In this document: piece by piece, positions 34,539-41,672 of the stretch | Numbering within the stretch: position 1 is the stretch's first letter | Layout: every line of letters begins with the position of its first letter | Source of the DNA: an uncultured bacterium | GTDB lineage: Bacteria; Patescibacteriota; Minisyncoccia; Phycocordibacterales; UBA9973 | Assembly: GCA_937895515.1 (NCBI GenBank) | Contig: CALAYS010000157.1 | Location: forward strand, 12,462 to 76,461 | Reading direction: 5' to 3' | Length of the DNA stretch: 64,000 nucleotides | The notes under the pieces: model-generated | Database searches by the model: none | What the model saw: only the letters and a program-made list of their open reading frames with translations | What the model was told of the DNA's origin: nothing | Translations under genes and position numbers: made by a program

Positions 34539-34610
34539 GCGTGTATAGTTCAGTGGTAGAACGCTGTCCTGATAAGACAGAGGTCCTTGGTCCGATTCCA
34601 AGTACACGCA
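34539..34610 (+). tRNA. tRNA-Ile (anticodon GAT)
   Basis: Hand-folded: acceptor GCGTGTA/TACACGC, D arm GTTC-AGTGGTA-GAAC, anticodon stem CTGTC/GACAG with loop CTGATAA, T arm CTTGG-TCCGATT-CCAAG. 72 nt; CCA not encoded. Confidence 0.9.
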
Positions 34611-34611
34611 C

Positions 34612-34938
34612 ATGGATGAAATCCAAAGTAACATTAATGATGGTAAGAAAAAATCAATCTTATTCAGTCAAGAATTAAGTTTTGGTTTGAATTTATCTTA
34701 CTGGATAATTTTTCCAGTAATCATTGGGTTTTTCCTGGGTAGATATATTGTTGATAAATTTAATCTACCAGAATATGTTTTTTATTCAATTTTAATTTTC
34801 TTTGTATTATCTTCTTTTTATGGACTCAGTAAGGAAATTTTAAAATATTTAAAAAAATTACAAAAAGAAGAAACTCGAAAAGTTCCCAAAAACAATGAAA
34901 TTAAAAATAATGAACAAGATTGGAATAAATTTAATTAA
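34612..34938 (+). CDS. AtpI/AtpZ-like small membrane protein, first gene of the atp operon
   Basis: Two TM helices (YWIIFPVIIGFFLGRYI, VFYSILIFFVLSSFYGL). Positioned immediately upstream of atpB. Confidence 0.6.
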   Translation: MDEIQSNINDGKKKSILFSQELSFGLNLSYWIIFPVIIGFFLGRYIVDKFNLPEYVFYSILIFFVLSSFYGLSKEILKYLKKLQKEETRKVPKNNEIKNNEQDWNKFN

Positions 34939-34940
34939 AC

Positions 34941-35897
34941 ATGACAGACACTAATATAGAAAACAACGAAATACATACAACAAATACAGAAGTTCTTCAG
35001 CAAGAAGATCATTCTTCTAGTAACCAAGAAACATCTCACGAAGCAACACTTTATGCAGAACCTATTGGTACTATTGGATCTTTTACTGTAACTAATGCAT
35101 TACTAACAAGCTGGATTGCTATATTTATTTTTGCAATAATTGTTTTAGTTTTTAGACTTAAGAAAATCAAATTAATCCCAGGAAAATTTCAAAACTTTTT
35201 TGAATTAATTATTCATGGGGCTTTAAATCTATGTGACCAAGTAACAGGTAACCGCAAGGTTTCAATAAAAGTTTTCCCAATTGTTTTTTCTTTGTTTGTT
35301 TTTGTACTAATTAACAACTGGGTTGGAATACTTCCAGGAGTTGGGTCTTTTGGTCATATTGTAAATGAAAACGGTCACAGTGTATTTGTACCACTATTAC
35401 GCGGGGCAACTGCTGATATTAATACAACATTAGCTATTTCTTTGTTTACGGTAATTGCTTCAAATATTTTCGGTATAATTACTCTTGGTTTATGGAAAGG
35501 TATAAACAAATACGTAAAAATTTCTGAGCTTGCTAAAATGCGCAATTTTATGAAAGAACCAACTATCCTAATAGTTGCACCTATTCATTTTTTTGTTGGT
35601 ATCTTAGAAGCTATTGGTGAAGTTGCTAAAGTTGCATCACTTACATTTCGTCTTTACGGTAATGTTTTTGCAGGGGAAGTGTTATTAGCTTCTATGGCAG
35701 CGATATTTTCATTTCTACTACCAGTACCATTTTTATTCTTAGAATTTTTCGTAGGCCTTATACAAGCATTTATCTTTTCAATGCTGACGCTTGTATATTT
35801 TTCAATCCAAGCAACCGACCATGATGAACACGATTCCCATGAATCTACGCATCATGATGAAAAACATCACGAGCAAATAGCTCAGGGATCGGTTTAA
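34941..35897 (+). CDS. atpB: F0F1 ATP synthase subunit a
   Basis: LTFRLYGNVFAGEVLL contains the conserved Arg. Polytopic, with a hydrophilic N-terminal extension and a His-rich C-terminal tail. Confidence 0.93.
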   Translation: MTDTNIENNEIHTTNTEVLQQEDHSSSNQETSHEATLYAEPIGTIGSFTVTNALLTSWIAIFIFAIIVLVFRLKKIKLIPGKFQNFFELIIHGALNLCDQVTGNRKVSIKVFPIVFSLFVFVLINNWVGILPGVGSFGHIVNENGHSVFVPLLRGATADINTTLAISLFTVIASNIFGIITLGLWKGINKYVKISELAKMRNFMKEPTILIVAPIHFFVGILEAIGEVAKVASLTFRLYGNVFAGEVLLASMAAIFSFLLPVPFLFLEFFVGLIQAFIFSMLTLVYFSIQATDHDEHDSHESTHHDEKHHEQIAQGSV

Positions 35898-35904
35898 TTA
35901 TTAG

Positions 35905-36141
<237 letters not shown>

Positions 36142-36169: not shown

Positions 36170-36661
36170 ATGGACTCATTAGTATCAACATTTCATATCG
36201 ACTTTAAACTTGTTATCGCTCAGCTTATAAACTTTGCTGTTGTTCTTATTCTTGTTTACTATGTTTTAGGTAAACCATTAATTAAGATGATGAACAAAAG
36301 AGACATTCATATTAAAGAAGGTATCGATAATGCTGCTAATGCTCTTGAGCTCATTAAAAAGACCGAGGAAGAATACGAAGCAACACTTCTTAAAGCAAAA
36401 ACAGAAGCTAGTGATTTTTTTCAAGAAGTAAAAAAACAAACTGAAGCTAAAAAATCAGCAATGCTGGAAGATGCAAGACTTGAAGTTGAGACTCTTATTG
36501 CTAATGGTCAAAAGTCTTTAGAAATTGAAAAACAAAAAATCTTAGCAGAAGCAAAGAAAGAAATTGTAGAATTAACAATAACTGCTACTAGCAAAATTCT
36601 AGCAGAACATAGCGGGTCTACTCTTAGTCAAGATACTATAAGTAAAATAAAATCCGTTTAG
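36170..36661 (+). CDS. atpF: F0F1 ATP synthase subunit b
   Basis: N-terminal TM followed by a long charged helix; operon position. Confidence 0.88.
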   Translation: MDSLVSTFHIDFKLVIAQLINFAVVLILVYYVLGKPLIKMMNKRDIHIKEGIDNAANALELIKKTEEEYEATLLKAKTEASDFFQEVKKQTEAKKSAMLEDARLEVETLIANGQKSLEIEKQKILAEAKKEIVELTITATSKILAEHSGSTLSQDTISKIKSV

Positions 36662-36664
36662 CCT

Positions 36665-37069
36665 ATGTCTTCAGTTCCAATTTCAAAAATTGCCCACAAA
36701 ATACATTCTTCTGTAAAGGATAAATCAGGAGATAGTTTGGATAAAACTCTAACTAGTATTGTAAAGATACTTTCTAAAAATAAATTACTGTCCAAGTCTA
36801 ACGAAGTTCTAGAAAAATTAGAAAATTTATTAGATAAAGAAAATGGAATTATTCGAGCAAAAGTATATACAGCACATAAAATCGGAGCAGATAATCTTAA
36901 AGAAATAGAAAAAGAATTAAAAAATAAATACAAAACCAAAACCATCTATATTACTGTTATTGAAGACCCTAAAATCTTAGGTGGGATAAAAATCCAAATA
37001 AAAGATCAAACAATAGATCTAAGTTTGCAAAAAAAGGTTACCCAATTAAAAAAACATTTACTTAATTAA
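36665..37069 (+). CDS. atpH: F0F1 ATP synthase subunit delta (OSCP), N-terminally truncated (134 aa)
   Basis: C-terminal ILGGIKIQI...[15 protein letters not shown] matches the OSCP C-terminal domain. Only about 43 residues precede it. Operon position between b and alpha. Confidence 0.8.
36794..37066 (+). repeat. delta C-terminal domain coding segment (copy 1 of an intra-operon duplication)
   Basis: Over 91 codons, 62/91 aa are identical to 39505..39777 by hand alignment. The last 27 nt including the stop are identical. Confidence 0.9.
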
Positions 37070-37086
37070 GAGACATTATTATAGAT

Positions 37087-38586
37087 ATGAATAACCACAT
37101 TGTAGAAAATTTAAAAAACCAAATTGAAGACTATAAAGCCGATTTTAAAATTGAAAAAATTGGTCATGTTGTCGAGGTTTTTGACGGTATTGTAAAAATA
37201 TCTGGATTATCTGATGTTAAAGCATCGGAAATGGTCTCGTTCCCAAATGGTGAAATTGGTGTGACTTTGAACCTGGACGAAGATTCTGTTGGGGTAATTG
37301 TTTTGGGTGATTTTTCTAAAATCCGTGAAGGTGATTTTGTGAACTCAACTGGTAAAATTTTGGAAGTTCCAGTAGGAGAAGCTGTAATTGGACGCGTAGT
37401 AAATGCACTAGGAGCACCAATTGATGGTAAAGGTCCTATTGCATCAAATACAAAATACCCAATCGAACGTGTGGCATCTGGTGTTGTAACACGTCAATCT
37501 GTAGACCAACCAGTACAAACTGGTATCAAAGCAATTGATGCATTAATTCCAATTGGTCGTGGTCAACGTGAACTTATCATTGGAGACCGTCAAACAGGTA
37601 AAACCGCTATTGCTATTGATGCAATTTTAAATCAAAAAGGCCAAAACATGAAATGTGTTTATGTTTCTATTGGCCAAAAAGATTCAAAGCTTCGTAAACT
37701 TCAAACTCGTCTTGAAGAAGGTGGAGCAATGGATTACACAGTGATAGTTTCTGCTGGTTCATCTGAATCGGCTGCTCTATCATATATCGCACCTTATACA
37801 GGAGTATCTATTGCAGAATACTTTATGGATAAAGGTGAAGATGTTTTAATAATTTATGATGATTTGTCTAAACACGCAGTAGCATACCGTGAAATATCAC
37901 TTCTTCTACGTCGTCCACCAGGCCGTGAAGCTTACCCTGGAGATGTGTTTTATTTACATTCAAGACTACTTGAAAGAGCTTGCCGAAAAAACAAAGAATA
38001 TGGCGGTGGTTCAATTACAGCTTTGCCTATTATTGAAACTCAAGCTGGAGACGTATCAGCATATATTCCAACAAACGTTATTTCAATTACCGACGGGCAA
38101 ATCTTCTTAGAAACAGATTTATTTTATAAAGGTATCCGCCCAGCAGTAAACGTAGGGTTGTCTGTTTCTCGTGTTGGGGGATCAGCTCAAATCAAAGGTA
38201 TGAAAAAAGTTGCAGGTACTCTTAAACTAGACCTTGCACAATTCCGTGAATTGGAAGCTTTTTCACAATTCGGATCAGATTTAGATGATGCAACAAAACG
38301 CCAACTAGAGCGTGGTAAAAGAGCCGTAGAACTGCTTAAACAACCTCAATATTCTCCAATTATTGTAGAAAAACAAATTGTCTCACTATATGCTCTTGTA
38401 AAAGGTATGATGGATAATGTACCGGTAGATCGTATTAAAGAATTTGAAGCTGGTTTATCTGATTATGTTGAAGCAAACGCAAAAACATTTATGAAAGAAA
38501 TTACAGATTCAAAAATGTGGACCGATGCCGGTGAAGCAGAATTAGTAAAATCAATTGAAGATTTTAAAGCAGGATTCTTAAAATAA
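37087..38586 (+). CDS. atpA: F0F1 ATP synthase subunit alpha
   Basis: [12 protein letters not shown]-loop; 499 aa. Confidence 0.98.
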
Positions 38587-38592
38587 AACTTT

Positions 38593-39780
38593 ATGGCTGG
38601 GACAAAAGAAATTAAAAGAAGAATAAAGTCTGTAAAGAACACAAAGAAAATCACGAAAGCGATGGAGCTTGTTGCTGCTAGTAAAATGAAAAGAGCAGTG
38701 GCTAGTACTTTATCTTCGCGATTATATGCACAATATTCTTGGGAGATTTTAAAATCAATAAGCCAAAATTCAGAACAAATCAGTCATCCGTTTTTTATAG
38801 GCTATGACCAAGAAAAAATTTTATTTGTATTAATTACTTCAAACCGTGGTTTGTGTGGGGGGTATAATTCGCAAGTTCTTAAAAAAACAATTTTAAAACT
38901 TAAAGAATTAAATTCTCTTGGTTCAGACGAGATTGATGTTGTTACTATTGGTAAAAAGGGTGGCATTGGAATGCGTAGAATTGGGCAAAATGTAATTGCT
39001 TCTTTTGATAATTTACCAGAACATATAGATTTAATGGATACGGTTCCAATTTCTAGATATATTGTTGACCAATACAAAACTGGTAATTACAAAAAAGTTT
39101 ATGTTGCTTATACTGACTTTATCTCAGCACTAAATCAAAAACCTAGTATTAAACAATTGTTACCAATATCAAAAAAAGATTTATTAGAAGCTATCGAATC
39201 AATAGGGGAAGATAAAATCCAAAAAGATTCAGATTCTAATGAAAAACCAGATTATCTATTTGAGGGAAATCAAGAATTATTAATAGATGCTTTGGGTGAA
39301 AAAATTTCTCGAATGCAAATATACCAAATGTTACTGGAATCAAATGCATCCGAACAATCGTCCCGTATGGTTGCCATGAAGAATGCATCCGAAGCTGCAG
39401 GGGAAATGATTGATGATTTAACACTGGTATTTAACAAAGCTCGTCAGGCAAATATCACTCAGGAAATATCAGAGATTAGTGCCGGAATGTCGAGCATGGT
39501 GGCTAAGTCAGATATTGTATTAAACAACTTGGAAGAACTAATAGACAAAGAGCACGGAATAATTCGACCTAAAATATATACAGCTAATAAAATTCCACAA
39601 GAGATCATTAAAGAAATTGAGCAAGAATTAAAAAATAAATACAAAGCCGAAGAAGTTATAATCACGGAAATAGAAGACCCAAATATCTTAGGTGGAATAA
39701 AAATCCAAATATCGAACGAAATAATTGACTTGAGTCTACAAAAAAGAGTCGCTCAATTAAAAAAACATTTACTTAATTAA
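38593..39780 (+). CDS. atpG: F0F1 ATP synthase subunit gamma fused to a delta-C-terminal-domain-like extension (395 aa)
   Basis: KRRIKSVKNTKKITKAMELVAASKM ... NKARQANITQEISEISAG is a full gamma. Residues 305-395 repeat the atpH C-terminal domain. Confidence 0.9.
   Translation: MAGTKEIKRRIKSVKNTKKITKAMELVAASKMKRAVASTLSSRLYAQYSWEILKSISQNSEQISHPFFIGYDQEKILFVLITSNRGLCGGYNSQVLKKTILKLKELNSLGSDEIDVVTIGKKGGIGMRRIGQNVIASFDNLPEHIDLMDTVPISRYIVDQYKTGNYKKVYVAYTDFISALNQKPSIKQLLPISKKDLLEAIESIGEDKIQKDSDSNEKPDYLFEGNQELLIDALGEKISRMQIYQMLLESNASEQSSRMVAMKNASEAAGEMIDDLTLVFNKARQANITQEISEISAGMSSMVAKSDIVLNNLEELIDKEHGIIRPKIYTANKIPQEIIKEIEQELKNKYKAEEVIITEIEDPNILGGIKIQISNEIIDLSLQKRVAQLKKHLLN
39505..39777 (+). repeat. 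delta C-terminal domain coding segment (copy 2, fused to atpG)
   Basis: See 36794..37066. Confidence 0.9.
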
Positions 39781-39787
39781 TAGATAG

Positions 39788-41149
<1,362 letters not shown>

Positions 41150-41171: not shown

Positions 41172-41621
41172 ATGTCAAATAAAAAATTAAAACTAAAAAT
41201 AGTAACACCGGAAAAACTTATTCTAGAAGAAGAAGTTGATCAAGTTGTGATACCTACAACAGAAGGTGAAGTTACAATCTTACCTGAGCATATTGCTATT
41301 GTAGTAGGACTTGCATCAGGTGATGTTGTGGCATTTAAGGATGGTGAATTAATTCCAATGGCTGTAGTTGGGGGATTCTTAGAAGTAAGTAAAGACAGTC
41401 GTGGGTATACTACCGCTACTGTTTTAGCTGACTTTGCGGAACATGTTGGTAGTATTACAGATGATGAAATAGTTAAAGCCAAAGCCCGCGCCGAAGAACT
41501 TAACAAACTAGCTGAAAATAAAGAAATTGTAGACTTTGAACGATTTGCAACAGAACTAGAACGATCTCTAACCCGCGTAAAAATCGCTGATAAATGGAGA
41601 ACTAAAAAATATCGTAAATAA
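41172..41621 (+). CDS. atpC: F0F1 ATP synthase subunit epsilon
   Basis: LKIVTPEK...EGEVTILPEH beta-sandwich plus a C-terminal helical hairpin. Confidence 0.9.
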   Translation: MSNKKLKLKIVTPEKLILEEEVDQVVIPTTEGEVTILPEHIAIVVGLASGDVVAFKDGELIPMAVVGGFLEVSKDSRGYTTATVLADFAEHVGSITDDEIVKAKARAEELNKLAENKEIVDFERFATELERSLTRVKIADKWRTKKYRK

Positions 41622-41636
41622 TTTCACGTAAAAAAT

Positions 41637-41672
41637 AACCCCGTAAATCAATACGGGGTTTATTTATTTTTT
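41637..41672. terminator. atp operon terminator (bidirectional)
   Basis: AACCCCGTA-aatcaa-TACGGGGTT followed by a T-rich run; convergent gene downstream. Confidence 0.85.

What the first reader, a model, noticed from the sequence alone, without database searches (positions are those of the whole stretch)
39496..39780. ATP synthase gamma subunit ORF continues into a second copy of the delta (OSCP) C-terminal domain
Seen in sequence: the atpG ORF is 395 aa. Residues 1 to about 300 are a complete gamma ending ...NKARQANITQEISEISAGMSS, which is where gammas normally stop. The frame then continues for about 95 residues: MVAKSDIVLNNLEELIDKEHGIIRPKIYTANKI...[31 protein letters not shown]. This aligns residue-for-residue with atpH residues 44-134, with 62/91 identical by my hand alignment. 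The last 27 nt of the two genes, including TAA, are identical.

Established knowledge: the gamma C-terminal helix ends near the top of the alpha3beta3 crown. That is where delta, a stator element, docks, and the delta C-terminal domain contacts subunit b.

Inference: a rotor subunit covalently carrying a stator-binding domain is mechanistically odd. It could be a built-in brake or inhibitor, an assembly tether, or a recent stop-codon loss that fused a separate delta-like paralog. An in-frame ATG at 39496 could still allow independent translation. I know of no described gamma-delta fusion.
Basis: partly seen in the sequence, partly recalled or inferred. Interest (0 to 1): 0.8.

Follow-up and report, generated by a model that had tools for sequence, protein, structure and literature searches.

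The report
Rotor subunit gamma carrying delta's C-domain
In this small-genome (Patescibacteria) bacterium the rotating shaft protein of ATP synthase has permanently acquired a copy of the domain that normally anchors the stationary side-stalk. The fusion is real, is kept by selection, also occurs in two unrelated bacterial lineages, and I found no paper describing it.

Summary
atpG (38593..39780) encodes 395 aa. Residues 1-301 are a complete gamma (Pfam E 5e-86). Residues 302-395 are a gap-free copy of atpH residues 41-134 (62/94 identical, E 1e-41; OSCP E 2e-18; the fold matches only delta/OSCP chains).

It is not an artefact. The identical gene was assembled from at least three other runs, and relatives with 95% and 84% identical protein keep the open junction.

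The extension evolves under purifying selection (dN/dS 0.05-0.09, like the gamma core). The nearest non-fused relatives (79% identical) end gamma at 299 aa, and none has a free-standing second delta domain. The extension-atpD spacer resembles atpH-atpA spacers. The origin is therefore an in-frame duplicative insertion, not loss of a stop codon.

An exhaustive search found the same architecture in two unrelated high-GC lineages (P0258, P0205).

Function is inferred. The module probably docks on the alpha3beta3 crown or the b stalk as delta's C-domain does, tethered to gamma by a swivel. Engineered gamma C-terminal cross-links do not stop rotation, and the delta C-domain fused to alpha recruits b2 stalks. 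A brake is less likely.

I rate it a new variant of a known machine, of high interest.

The parts
34941..35897 (+). atpB (Fo subunit a), first recognisable gene of the atp operon
   Evidence: 318-aa ORF. The syntenic gene in L001 hits PF00119.
35929..36141 (+). atpE (subunit c)
   Evidence: 70-aa ORF. The syntenic gene in L001 hits PF00137.
36170..36661 (+). atpF (subunit b). It is the only b-type gene in the operon and the presumed partner of delta C-domains.
   Evidence: PF00430, E 6.5e-22.
36665..37069 (+). atpH, a short delta subunit of 134 aa (OSCP profile positions 56-172 only)
   Evidence: PF00213, E 3.2e-24. The ~134-aa length is the norm in related loci.
36785..37069 (+). The part of atpH (codons 41-134 plus stop) that corresponds to the copied block
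   Evidence: BLASTP 62/94 identical without gaps to the gamma extension. DNA alignment.
37087..38586 (+). atpA (alpha)
   Evidence: 499-aa ORF. Pfam domains of the syntenic gene.
38593..39495 (+). atpG core: the complete gamma subunit (residues 1-301)
   Evidence: PF00231 on residues 4-301, E 5.5e-86. Collinear with 299-aa non-fused gammas.
39478..39513 (+). Fusion junction ...S-A-G-M-S-S | M-V-A-K-S-D..., open in frame. Candidate swivel/linker.
   Evidence: Sequence. The same junction is kept in L001 and L002 despite many synonymous changes. AF2 predicts a continuous helix 227-321 across it, at low confidence.
39496..39780 (+). Extension: delta/OSCP C-terminal domain fused to gamma (residues 302-395 plus TAA)
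   Evidence: PF00213, E 2e-18. AF2 pLDDT 80.8. The top 48 Foldseek PDB hits are all delta/OSCP. dN/dS 0.05-0.09.
39781..39796 (+). 16-nt spacer before atpD, apparently copied together with the atpH 3' block
   Evidence: It resembles atpH-atpA spacers (14-17 nt; L008 TAGCTAGAATAGAT). It does not resemble the 28-35 nt atpG-atpD spacers of non-fused relatives.
39797..41149 (+). atpD (beta)
   Evidence: 450-aa ORF. Pfam domains of the syntenic gene.
41172..41621 (+). atpC (epsilon)
   Evidence: 149-aa ORF. The syntenic gene hits PF02823.
41637..41660 (.). Terminator-like hairpin that closes the operon
   Evidence: 9-bp stem with 5 GC pairs and T runs on both strands.

Best explanation
What it is (shown): a block running from atpH codon 41 through the atpH-atpA spacer was copied in frame onto the last codons of atpG. 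This happened once, in the common ancestor of a narrow Patescibacteria (Nomurabacteria/Paceibacteria-like) lineage. It produced a gamma subunit that ends in a complete delta/OSCP C-terminal domain. The fusion has been kept by purifying selection ever since. The same architecture is found in two other, unrelated lineages; the window's event is clearly independent of them.

How it most likely works (inferred): gamma's C-terminus ends in the bearing at the top of the alpha3beta3 crown. The appended 20-residue helix and alpha/beta domain therefore emerge on the crown's upper face. There the module does what delta's own C-domain does: it docks on an alpha N-terminal barrel and/or holds a b-subunit C-terminus. 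It stays stationary while gamma turns. The Gly/Ser-rich end of gamma (..SAGMSSM..) and the single terminal helix act as a swivel. The effect is an extra, stoichiometrically guaranteed attachment point for the peripheral stalk. This could be a reinforcement or assembly tether, and possibly a site for an additional b2 stalk.
For: Identity and origin:
- Domain assignments and the gap-free 66% match to atpH 41-134.
- Fold: the AF2 model of the extension (pLDDT 80.8) matches only delta/OSCP chains, with TMq 0.65-0.77. It aligns to Bacillus PS3 delta residues 98-177.
- Single origin: the extensions of the window, L001 and L002 form one clade. That clade is sister to the atpH of the window and L001 (L002's atpH is off the contig). 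Both sit next to the atpH of the non-fused L003 and L008.
- Spacer evidence for the copied block.

Selection and reality:
- dN/dS of the extension is 0.052, 0.090 and 0.075 at dS 0.6-1.9. The gamma core gives 0.064, atpH 0.051 and atpD 0.040.
- Identical gene in independent assemblies.

Retained partner-binding character:
- In all three fused lineages the extension carries the family's majority residue at 16 of the 25 delta-family positions conserved at >=70%, including the GG, D379, L389 and L393 positions. At the other 9 it carries conservative substitutions, most of them shared with the clade's own atpH.
- The C-terminal helix ..QLKKHLLN is identical to that of delta.
- The five extension-specific substitutions are four in the first (linker) helix and one (E354) inside the domain.

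Recurrence:
- P0258 (395 aa, inside a full atp operon with a canonical 211-aa delta) and P0205 (Chloroflexota-like gamma) have the same collinear architecture.
- The P0258 extension is closest to its own delta (37% identity), then to the P0205 extension (32%), and only 18% identical to the window's.

Mechanistic precedents:
- Disulfide cross-links between gamma's C-terminal single helix (gamma276-285) and the bearing leave ATPase activity and rotation intact, through an unwound swivel (PMC3536650).
- The delta C-domain (residues 105-178) fused to alpha recruits b2 stalks by the canonical interface, up to three per enzyme (PMC12229609).
- Chloroflexus F1Fo naturally carries two delta-C modules, two stalks and two a subunits (PMC12002316).
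Against: - There is no direct evidence on where the domain sits, what it binds, or whether the protein stays intact.
- The delta N-domain occupies the central concavity on the symmetry axis in canonical enzymes (PMC12229609). That is exactly where the extension must emerge. The P0258 lineage has a full-length canonical delta, so a steric conflict has to be resolved somehow.
- AF2 gave low confidence for the extension in the context of full-length gamma (pLDDT 33-59). The linker geometry is therefore unknown.
- The cross-link experiments were done on E. coli F1 in hydrolysis. They show tolerance of a tether, not benefit from one.
- The fusion is rare: three lineages among billions of proteins. 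It is clearly not a general solution.
Confidence: 0.42

Rival explanations
1. Built-in brake or latch. The gamma-borne delta C-domain reversibly grabs the b-stalk or delta and so ties rotor to stator. This would suppress wasteful ATP hydrolysis (or all turnover) under some conditions. It would be analogous to the mycobacterial alpha C-terminal extension hooking gamma, or to the epsilon C-domain.
For: - The domain keeps delta's conserved residues and its C-terminal helix, so it could bind a stator partner.
- Lineage-specific rotor-stator latches exist in mycobacteria (PMC8617483).
- The extension is under strong purifying selection, as a regulator would be.
Against: - Covalent links at the extreme C-terminal single helix of gamma do not stop rotation. 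The motor's torque unwinds the helix into a swivel (PMC3536650). A latch placed there would be a poor brake.
- No regulatory element (redox cysteines, nucleotide-binding motif) was seen in the extension.
Confidence: 0.18
2. The extension rotates with gamma as a cap or knob above the crown and binds no stator part. It would act as a retainer that keeps gamma seated in alpha3beta3, or it would fill the space left by this clade's truncated delta N-domain.
For: - AF2 predicts the gamma C-terminal helix running on uninterrupted to residue 321.
- Delta in this clade lacks about 55 N-terminal residues of the canonical N-domain that normally fills the central concavity.
Against: - The P0258 lineage has the same fusion with a full-length canonical delta.
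- A mere knob would not need delta's partner-binding surface and C-terminal helix to stay invariant.
- The helix prediction has low confidence.
Confidence: 0.15
3. The fusion is only genetic. The delta C-domain is made or released as a separate ~11-kDa protein, by internal initiation at M299/M302 or by proteolysis. It then acts as a free truncated delta, for example a second stalk adaptor.
For: - In-frame ATGs at 39487 and 39496 are conserved in all three fused lineages.
- This genome shows no SD-like motifs, so the lack of an SD says nothing against initiation there.
Against: - No stop codon separates the two parts in any lineage, despite saturated synonymous change.
- The ATG at 39496 is inherited from delta's internal Met.
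- No promoter-like site above chance and no terminator lies at the junction.
- Two unrelated lineages also keep a continuous frame, and their junctions have no Met.
- A free delta C-domain was judged unlikely to bind alpha3beta3 stably by the authors who engineered one (PMC12229609).
Confidence: 0.12
4. Non-functional accident: an assembly chimera, a sequencing error, or a neutral recent duplication on its way to decay.
For: - The fusion is rare and confined to narrow lineages.
- The two copies share an identical 27-nt end that could in principle mislead an assembler.
Against: - The extension is only 66% identical in protein to atpH, with saturated synonymous divergence (dS about 1.5), so it is a distinct sequence.
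- The identical gene was assembled from several independent runs.
- The frame is kept at dS up to about 1.8, with dN/dS 0.05-0.09.
- The 27-nt identity is also shared by the atpH of the non-fused L003 apart from one base, so it reflects conservation of delta's C-terminus.
Confidence: 0.03

Closest known systems
Engineered deltaDeltaN-alpha fusion of Bacillus PS3 FoF1 (Ueno et al. 2025, PMC12229609; PDB 9JC1)
   Same: The same module is covalently appended to another F1 subunit. Delta residues 105-178 were used there; the window's extension aligns to PS3 delta residues 98-177. There the module alone recruits b2 stalks by the canonical interface. 9JC1 chains are among the fold matches.
   Different: - That construct is man-made; this fusion is natural.
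- There the module is fused to the N-terminus of alpha, a stator subunit, in three copies, and full-length delta is removed.
- Here it is fused to the C-terminus of gamma, the rotor, in one copy, and a separate delta gene is kept.
[quoted passage not shown] 2025, PMC12002316)
   Same: It is a natural F-type enzyme with more than one delta C-domain per complex. Each delta-C binds an alpha N-terminal barrel and a b C-terminus. Its delta is short (157 aa), as in the window's clade (134 aa).
   Different: - There the second delta-C comes from a second copy of the same free delta, held by N-domain dimerisation.
- Here it is encoded on gamma.
- The stoichiometry of b and a in the window's organism is unknown.
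Mycobacterial b-delta fusion with a duplicated delta N-domain, and the alpha C-terminal extension that hooks gamma (Montgomery et al. 2021, PMC8617483)
   Same: These are lineage-specific fusions and domain duplications involving delta. There is also a lineage-specific extension that links a stator subunit to the rotor.
   Different: - b-delta joins two stator partners, and it is the N-domain that is duplicated.
- The alpha-gamma contact is non-covalent and inhibitory.
- Here the C-domain is duplicated and joined covalently to the rotor.
Engineered disulfide cross-links between the gamma C-terminus and the alpha3beta3 bearing in E. coli F1 (Hilbers, Junge, Sielaff 2013, PMC3536650)
   Same: A covalent rotor-stator connection at gamma's C-terminal single helix. 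Rotation persists through a swivel in the unwound helix. This is the condition my model requires.
   Different: Those are artificial cysteine pairs inside the bearing, with no added domain. The paper gives no evidence that nature uses such a swivel.
Clostridium delta subunit with three tandem C-domains (P0191; e.g. MBD8047619.1)
   Same: A natural multiplication of the delta C-domain within the ATP synthase gene set.
   Different: There the copies stay on delta, a stator subunit, and are arranged in tandem. They are not on gamma.

Membership tests
F-type ATP synthase gamma subunit (PF00231) | Full-length match to the gamma profile above the curated cut-off | tested here: met
   289.2 bits against a cut-off of 39.9; residues 4-301 cover profile positions 2-284 of 285.
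F-type ATP synthase gamma subunit (PF00231) | Encoded between atpA and atpD in an atp operon | tested here: met
   Gene order atpB-E-F-H-A-G-D-C.
F-type ATP synthase gamma subunit (PF00231) | Ends with the C-terminal helix that sits in the alpha3beta3 bearing | tested here: not met
   The conserved helix is present, but the chain continues for 94 residues beyond the point where 299-aa relatives stop.
Delta/OSCP subunit (PF00213) | C-terminal alpha/beta domain | tested here: met
   Profile positions 88-172, E 2e-18. AF2 pLDDT 80.8. The top 48 Foldseek PDB hits are all delta/OSCP.
Delta/OSCP subunit (PF00213) | N-terminal helical domain that binds alpha N-termini on the crown axis | tested here: not met
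   The extension starts at profile position ~88. Only the last helix before the C-domain was copied.
Delta/OSCP subunit (PF00213) | Binds the C-terminus of subunit b and an alpha N-terminal barrel | not testable with these tools
   The extension carries the family's majority residue at 16 of 25 conserved positions, has conservative substitutions at the rest, and has a C-terminal helix identical to delta's. This is compatible with binding but does not test it.
Multi-stalk F-type ATP synthases (Chloroflexus delta2 b4 a2; engineered deltaDeltaN-alpha) | More than one delta C-domain per complex | tested here: met
   Met at gene level only: one on atpH and one on atpG, both under purifying selection.
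Multi-stalk F-type ATP synthases (Chloroflexus delta2 b4 a2; engineered deltaDeltaN-alpha) | The extra delta C-domain is carried by a stator subunit | tested here: not met
   It is carried by gamma, the rotor.
Multi-stalk F-type ATP synthases (Chloroflexus delta2 b4 a2; engineered deltaDeltaN-alpha) | More than one b2 stalk and more than one a subunit in the assembled enzyme | not testable with these tools
   This needs purification and stoichiometry measurement, or cryo-EM. The operon has single atpB and atpF genes, as Chloroflexus does.
Known natural subunit fusions of the peripheral stalk (mycobacterial b-delta) | Fusion joins subunits that are static relative to each other | tested here: not met
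   The partner here is gamma. The b-delta chains match only through the delta part.
Auto-inhibitory rotor-stator latches (mycobacterial alpha C-extension, epsilon C-domain) | The extension blocks rotation in the hydrolysis direction | not testable with these tools
   There is no assay available here. The position at gamma's extreme C-terminus argues against effective blocking (PMC3536650).

The most novel reading that the evidence does not exclude
The gamma-borne delta C-domain is a natural swivel-tethered adaptor. It recruits an additional b2 peripheral stalk, and with it possibly a second a subunit, to the enzyme. That would make this a naturally multi-stalk F-type ATP synthase whose extra stalk site is encoded on the rotor. 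It would raise the H+/ATP ratio, which could suit low-energy fermentative Patescibacteria, and it would be the first natural use of an unwound-helix swivel joint between rotor and stator. At least two independent origins would then mark a repeatable evolutionary route to changing stalk number.
Probability: 0.15. Interest if true: 0.92.

Novelty: new variant of a known kind. Interest (0 to 1): 0.78.

Why it matters
Rotary ATP synthases are built on a strict separation of rotor (gamma, epsilon, c-ring) and stator (alpha3beta3, delta, b2, a). A naturally selected protein that joins the rotor shaft covalently to the domain that holds the stator stalk challenges that rule.

It gives a natural test case for two recent ideas. 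The first is that the number of delta C-domains sets the number of peripheral stalks and proton channels, and so the H+/ATP ratio (Ueno 2025; Zhang 2025). The second is that gamma's terminal helix can serve as a molecular swivel (Hilbers 2013).

The fusion occurs in three unrelated lineages, with at least two independent origins, and is under strong purifying selection. It is therefore likely to have a real mechanical or assembly role.

The construct is easy to copy into Bacillus PS3 or E. coli enzymes. That makes the question directly testable by rotation assays, stoichiometry measurements and cryo-EM.

Tried and rejected
- **Assembly or sequencing artefact:** rejected. The identical gene was recovered from independent runs, and diverged relatives keep the open junction.
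- **Recent gene conversion as the cause of the identical 27-nt ends:** not needed. The atpH of the non-fused L003 has the same 27 nt apart from one base, so this is conservation of delta's C-terminus.
- **Stop-codon loss between two adjacent genes:** no free-standing second delta C-domain in about 165 related loci. The spacers of non-fused relatives are only 28-35 nt.
- **Apparent extended matches ('query 1-97') in L010, L036 and L123:** these looked like further fusions. They are tblastn reading through the gamma stop into atpD.
- **Searching the 5.8-billion-protein index with the extension alone:** only 15 candidates, no new fusions.
- **Searching with an alignment of fused proteins:** swamped by Patescibacteria gammas, no further fused family in the top 120.
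- **Mixed gamma+delta alignments for AF2:** MAFFT smeared delta over gamma. I predicted the fused protein with gamma-only depth, which left the extension at low confidence. I predicted the extension separately.
- **dN/dS in the P0258 lineage:** impossible, because all four contigs are nucleotide-identical over the gene.
- **SD-based test of internal initiation:** uninformative. 47 of 50 long ORFs in the window lack any SD-like motif.
- **Promoter scan:** at chance level. No terminator lies at the junction.
- **Rfam:** only two tRNAs in the window.
- **Slippery sites:** by eye on the printed sequence I saw no slippery heptamer at the junction. The only A-run, A7, lies five codons before the stop in both copies. 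This was not followed further.
Full report
**1. The observation**

The window carries a complete atp operon on the + strand. From left to right it holds:
- tRNA-Ile;
- a 108-aa AtpI-like ORF;
- atpB, atpE and atpF;
- atpH (36665..37069, 134 aa) and atpA;
- atpG (38593..39780, 395 aa);
- atpD and atpC;
- a terminator-like hairpin.

atpG is one uninterrupted frame. Pfam places the gamma family on residues 4-301 (E 5.5e-86). It places the OSCP/delta family on residues 309-393, covering only the C-terminal half of the profile (positions 88-172, E 7.3e-17; E 2e-18 for the extension alone).

Residues 302-395 align without a gap to atpH residues 41-134. The alignment has 62/94 identities and E 1e-41. 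The last 27 nt including TAA are identical in the two genes.

**2. It is not an artefact**

- The extension is a distinct sequence. It is 66% identical in protein to atpH, and synonymous sites between the two are saturated (dS about 1.5). An assembler did not simply paste atpH twice.
- A search of 5.8 billion proteins found the same 395-aa protein (P0001). It also found a 95% identical one from a different project (P0002, JGI, 78-kb contig, L001). A third, 84% identical, is split only by a scaffold gap of Ns (P0006, L002).
- The >=90% identity cluster holds six distinct sequences from NCBI, ENA and Logan, one on a 346.6-kb contig.
- Contigs from ERZ650287, SRR6231156 and SRR6231133 carry a nucleotide-identical gene.

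**3. Origin**

The organism belongs to the Patescibacteria. The best named gamma homologues are Candidatus Nomurabacteria/Paceibacterota, and the window's GC content is 33%.

The nearest non-fused gammas are 79% identical and 299 aa long. They end at ...ISEISSGMASVSG, and they sit next to the same short 134-aa atpH.

Of 154 gamma ORFs in the loci fetched up to that point, only L001 and L002 are fused. Loci fetched afterwards added further fused copies: L164/L165 and L167/L168 (the P0258 type), L166 (P0205), and L169-L171 (identical to the window). No locus has a free-standing second delta C-domain.

In a neighbour-joining tree of delta C-domains, the three extensions form one clade. That clade is sister to the atpH of the window and L001 (L002's atpH lies off the contig). 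Together they sit beside the atpH of the non-fused L003 and L008. This indicates one duplication, after the split from the L003 lineage and before the three fused lineages diverged.

The junction reads gamma ..AGMSS | MLSKSD.. delta. The Met is the internal Met of the ancestral delta (..KGMLSKSD.. in L003).

Downstream, the 16-nt spacer before atpD (TAGATAGGATAATAAT) has the size and sequence type of atpH-atpA spacers (14-17 nt; L008 TAGCTAGAATAGAT). It does not resemble the 28-35 nt atpG-atpD spacers of non-fused relatives. atpA and atpD both start ATGAAYAAT.

I infer that a block from atpH codon 41 through the spacer to that shared start was copied over the last codons of atpG. This would be a two-junction, template-switch type event. 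It is not the loss of a stop codon between two pre-existing genes.

The identical 27-nt ends do not require recent gene conversion. The atpH of L003 has the same 27 nt apart from one base.

**4. Selection**

Nei-Gojobori estimates for the extension:

| Comparison | dN/dS | dS |
|---|---|---|
| Extension, window vs L001 | 0.052 | 0.61 |
| Extension, window vs L002 | 0.090 | 1.67 |
| Extension, L001 vs L002 | 0.075 | 1.85 |

For the window vs L001 pair, the other subunits give:

| Region | dN/dS |
|---|---|
| Gamma core | 0.064 |
| atpH | 0.051 |
| atpF | 0.059 |
| atpD | 0.040 |

The extension is thus constrained as strongly as the essential subunits, and the open junction survived saturating synonymous change.

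Site by site, 25 positions of the delta family are conserved at >=70%. All three fused lineages carry the family's majority residue at 16 of them. These include L313, L346, K347, Y350, D362, L366, G367, G368, K370, I371, I378, D379, L389 and L393. At the other 9 they carry conservative substitutions, most of them shared with the clade's own atpH.

The C-terminal helix ..QLKKHLLN is identical to that of delta. Five substitutions are shared by all extensions and absent from the compared deltas: N311, N312, E315 and H321 in the first helix, next to the junction, and E354 inside the domain.

**5. Structure**

- With an alignment of 55 delta sequences, AF2 models the extension at pLDDT 80.8. The model is helix, strand, helix, three strands, helix.
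- Foldseek against the PDB returns only delta/OSCP chains in the top 48. Examples are Bacillus PS3 6n2y_I, E. coli 6oqr_W and chloroplast 6vof_d, with TMq 0.65-0.77.
- By sequence the extension aligns to PS3 delta residues 98-177 of 178.
- In the full-length model the gamma C-terminal helix runs on through the junction to residue 321. Confidence for the extension is low there (pLDDT 33-59), because only three sequences cover it.

**6. Recurrence elsewhere**

I ran an exhaustive HMMER search of 1.84 billion cluster representatives with the junction region. It gave 5,528 hits, of which the best 150 were listed. Two further proteins matched continuously across gamma's C-terminus and the delta domain. 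Pfam confirms PF00231 plus PF00213 in both.

- **P0258** (395 aa) lies in a full atp operon of an unidentified 69%-GC bacterium. That operon has a canonical full-length delta (211 aa, OSCP profile 1-172). The gene occurs in four contigs from ENA and JGI samples.
- **P0205** (about 380 aa from the first in-frame Met of the open frame; called as 359 aa) has a gamma closest to Chloroflexota/Limnocylindrales. Its gene stands alone, between a methyltransferase-like ORF and CBS-domain genes.

The three types align collinearly, with the joint at the same place, the end of gamma's C-terminal helix. The P0258 extension is 37% identical to its own delta, 32% to the P0205 extension and 18% to the window's.

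The window's event is clearly independent of the other two. Those two are older and may or may not share an origin. I could not enumerate the architecture exhaustively, so the true number of lineages is unknown.

**7. How it most likely works**

From established knowledge and the papers read, four points bear on the mechanism:
- The delta N-domain fills the central concavity on the threefold axis. The delta C-domain binds one alpha N-terminal region and the b2 C-termini (PMC12229609; PMC12002316).
- Disulfide links between gamma residues 276-285 and the bearing leave ATPase and rotation active, because the single terminal helix unwinds into a swivel (PMC3536650). A covalent rotor-stator link at exactly this place is therefore tolerated. 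By the same argument it would make a poor brake.
- The delta C-domain (105-178), fused to alpha, is sufficient to recruit b2 stalks through the canonical interface, up to three per enzyme, raising H+/ATP to 5.8 (PMC12229609). Chloroflexus naturally uses two delta C-domains to hold two stalks and two a subunits (PMC12002316).

The window's extension is essentially that same module, and it conserves delta's surface.

My best-supported reading is that the extension emerges on top of the crown and docks like a delta C-domain on an alpha barrel and/or a b C-terminus. It would stay put while gamma turns beneath it on a swivel formed by ..SAGMSSM.. and the adjacent helix. It would then serve as an extra stalk anchor that is present in exactly one copy per enzyme: a reinforcement or assembly tether.

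The boldest version is that it recruits a further b2 stalk and a subunit.

What is shown: identity, origin, selection and recurrence. What is inferred: location, partners and the swivel. The main difficulty is steric. The extension must pass the place that the delta N-domain occupies. The window's clade has a delta lacking about 55 N-terminal residues, which might make room. The P0258 lineage, however, has a full-length delta.

**8. Rivals**

- **Brake or latch** (0.18): weakened by the cross-link data.
- **Co-rotating cap or retainer** (0.15): weakened by the conservation of the partner-binding features and by the P0258 context.
- **Separately made or cleaved product** (0.12): no stop in any lineage, and the other two lineages have no Met at the joint. 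It cannot be excluded without proteomics.
- **Artefact or neutral accident** (0.03): effectively refuted.

**9. Comparison with what is known, and novelty**

The closest known cases are:
- the engineered deltaDeltaN-alpha fusion;
- the Chloroflexus delta dimer;
- the mycobacterial b-delta fusion with a duplicated delta N-domain, together with the alpha-extension/gamma latch (PMC8617483);
- the engineered gamma-bearing cross-links;
- a Clostridium delta with three tandem C-domains that I met in passing.

None of them joins a delta domain to the rotor. Three full-text searches found no paper describing a gamma-delta fusion. The sources that name these proteins call them simply 'subunit gamma'.

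I class the finding as a new variant of a known kind: an F-type ATP synthase with an undescribed, selected and recurrent rotor-stator domain fusion.

**10. Verdict**

Interest is high (0.78), because a specialist would not expect a conserved covalent link between gamma and a stalk-binding domain. The construct also makes the swivel and stalk-number ideas directly testable.

Noticed in passing
window 36665..37069 (atpH) and delta ORFs of related loci: Delta is only 134 aa here and covers OSCP profile positions 56-172. 43 of 71 delta ORFs in the fetched loci are 130-139 aa. About 55 N-terminal residues of the canonical delta N-domain are missing. The short (157 aa) delta of Chloroflexus dimerises and carries two stalks, so the stoichiometry in these Patescibacteria may also be unusual.
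   Followed up: partly
L001 5620..5994: The 95%-identical relative has an extra 124-aa ORF (no Pfam hit) inserted between atpA and atpG. Its atpA 3' end is strongly diverged: atpA dN/dS is 0.18, against 0.04-0.06 for the other subunits. This suggests a local replacement or insertion event.
   Followed up: partly
P0191 (Clostridium argentinense/faecium delta, e.g. MBD8047619.1): A delta subunit of 364 aa with one N-domain followed by three tandem C-terminal domains (three OSCP stretches). It is present on 22 contigs.
   Followed up: partly
L164 / L167 (P0258 lineage), whole operon: An alpha-L-fucosidase gene sits between atpH and atpA. Alpha is 587 aa, with an insertion splitting the nucleotide-binding domain and an Arg-rich C-terminal tail. 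A nitroreductase gene and a 101-aa ORF lie between atpD and atpC.
   Followed up: no
L166 687..1838: The Chloroflexota-like gamma::delta-C gene stands alone, flanked by a methyltransferase-like ORF and CBS-domain genes. It is not inside an atp operon. The called start (759) probably truncates the N-terminus.
   Followed up: partly
window, whole (50 long ORFs): 47 of 50 long ORFs have no Shine-Dalgarno-like motif within 20 nt upstream of the start. The atp genes are among them, except for a weak AGGA before atpD.
   Followed up: partly
window 34612..34938: A 108-aa ORF starts directly after tRNA-Ile (34539..34611) and ends 2 nt before atpB. It has only a sub-threshold hit to ATPase_gene1 (AtpI-like; 16.8 bits against a cut-off of 26.6). 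It is conserved in L001 and L169.
   Followed up: partly
P0127 and P0244 (hits): P0127 (202 aa) contains two tandem copies of the gamma C-terminal helix segment. P0244 is a 401-aa gamma with a ~100-aa insertion in the N-terminal half.
   Followed up: no
window 39751..39777 and 37040..37066: The last eight sense codons plus stop of both delta-type ends include an A7 run (TTAAAAAAACAT). They are almost invariant at the nucleotide level across lineages whose other synonymous sites are saturated. A nucleotide-level role, for example translational coupling to the following alpha or beta gene, is possible.
   Followed up: no
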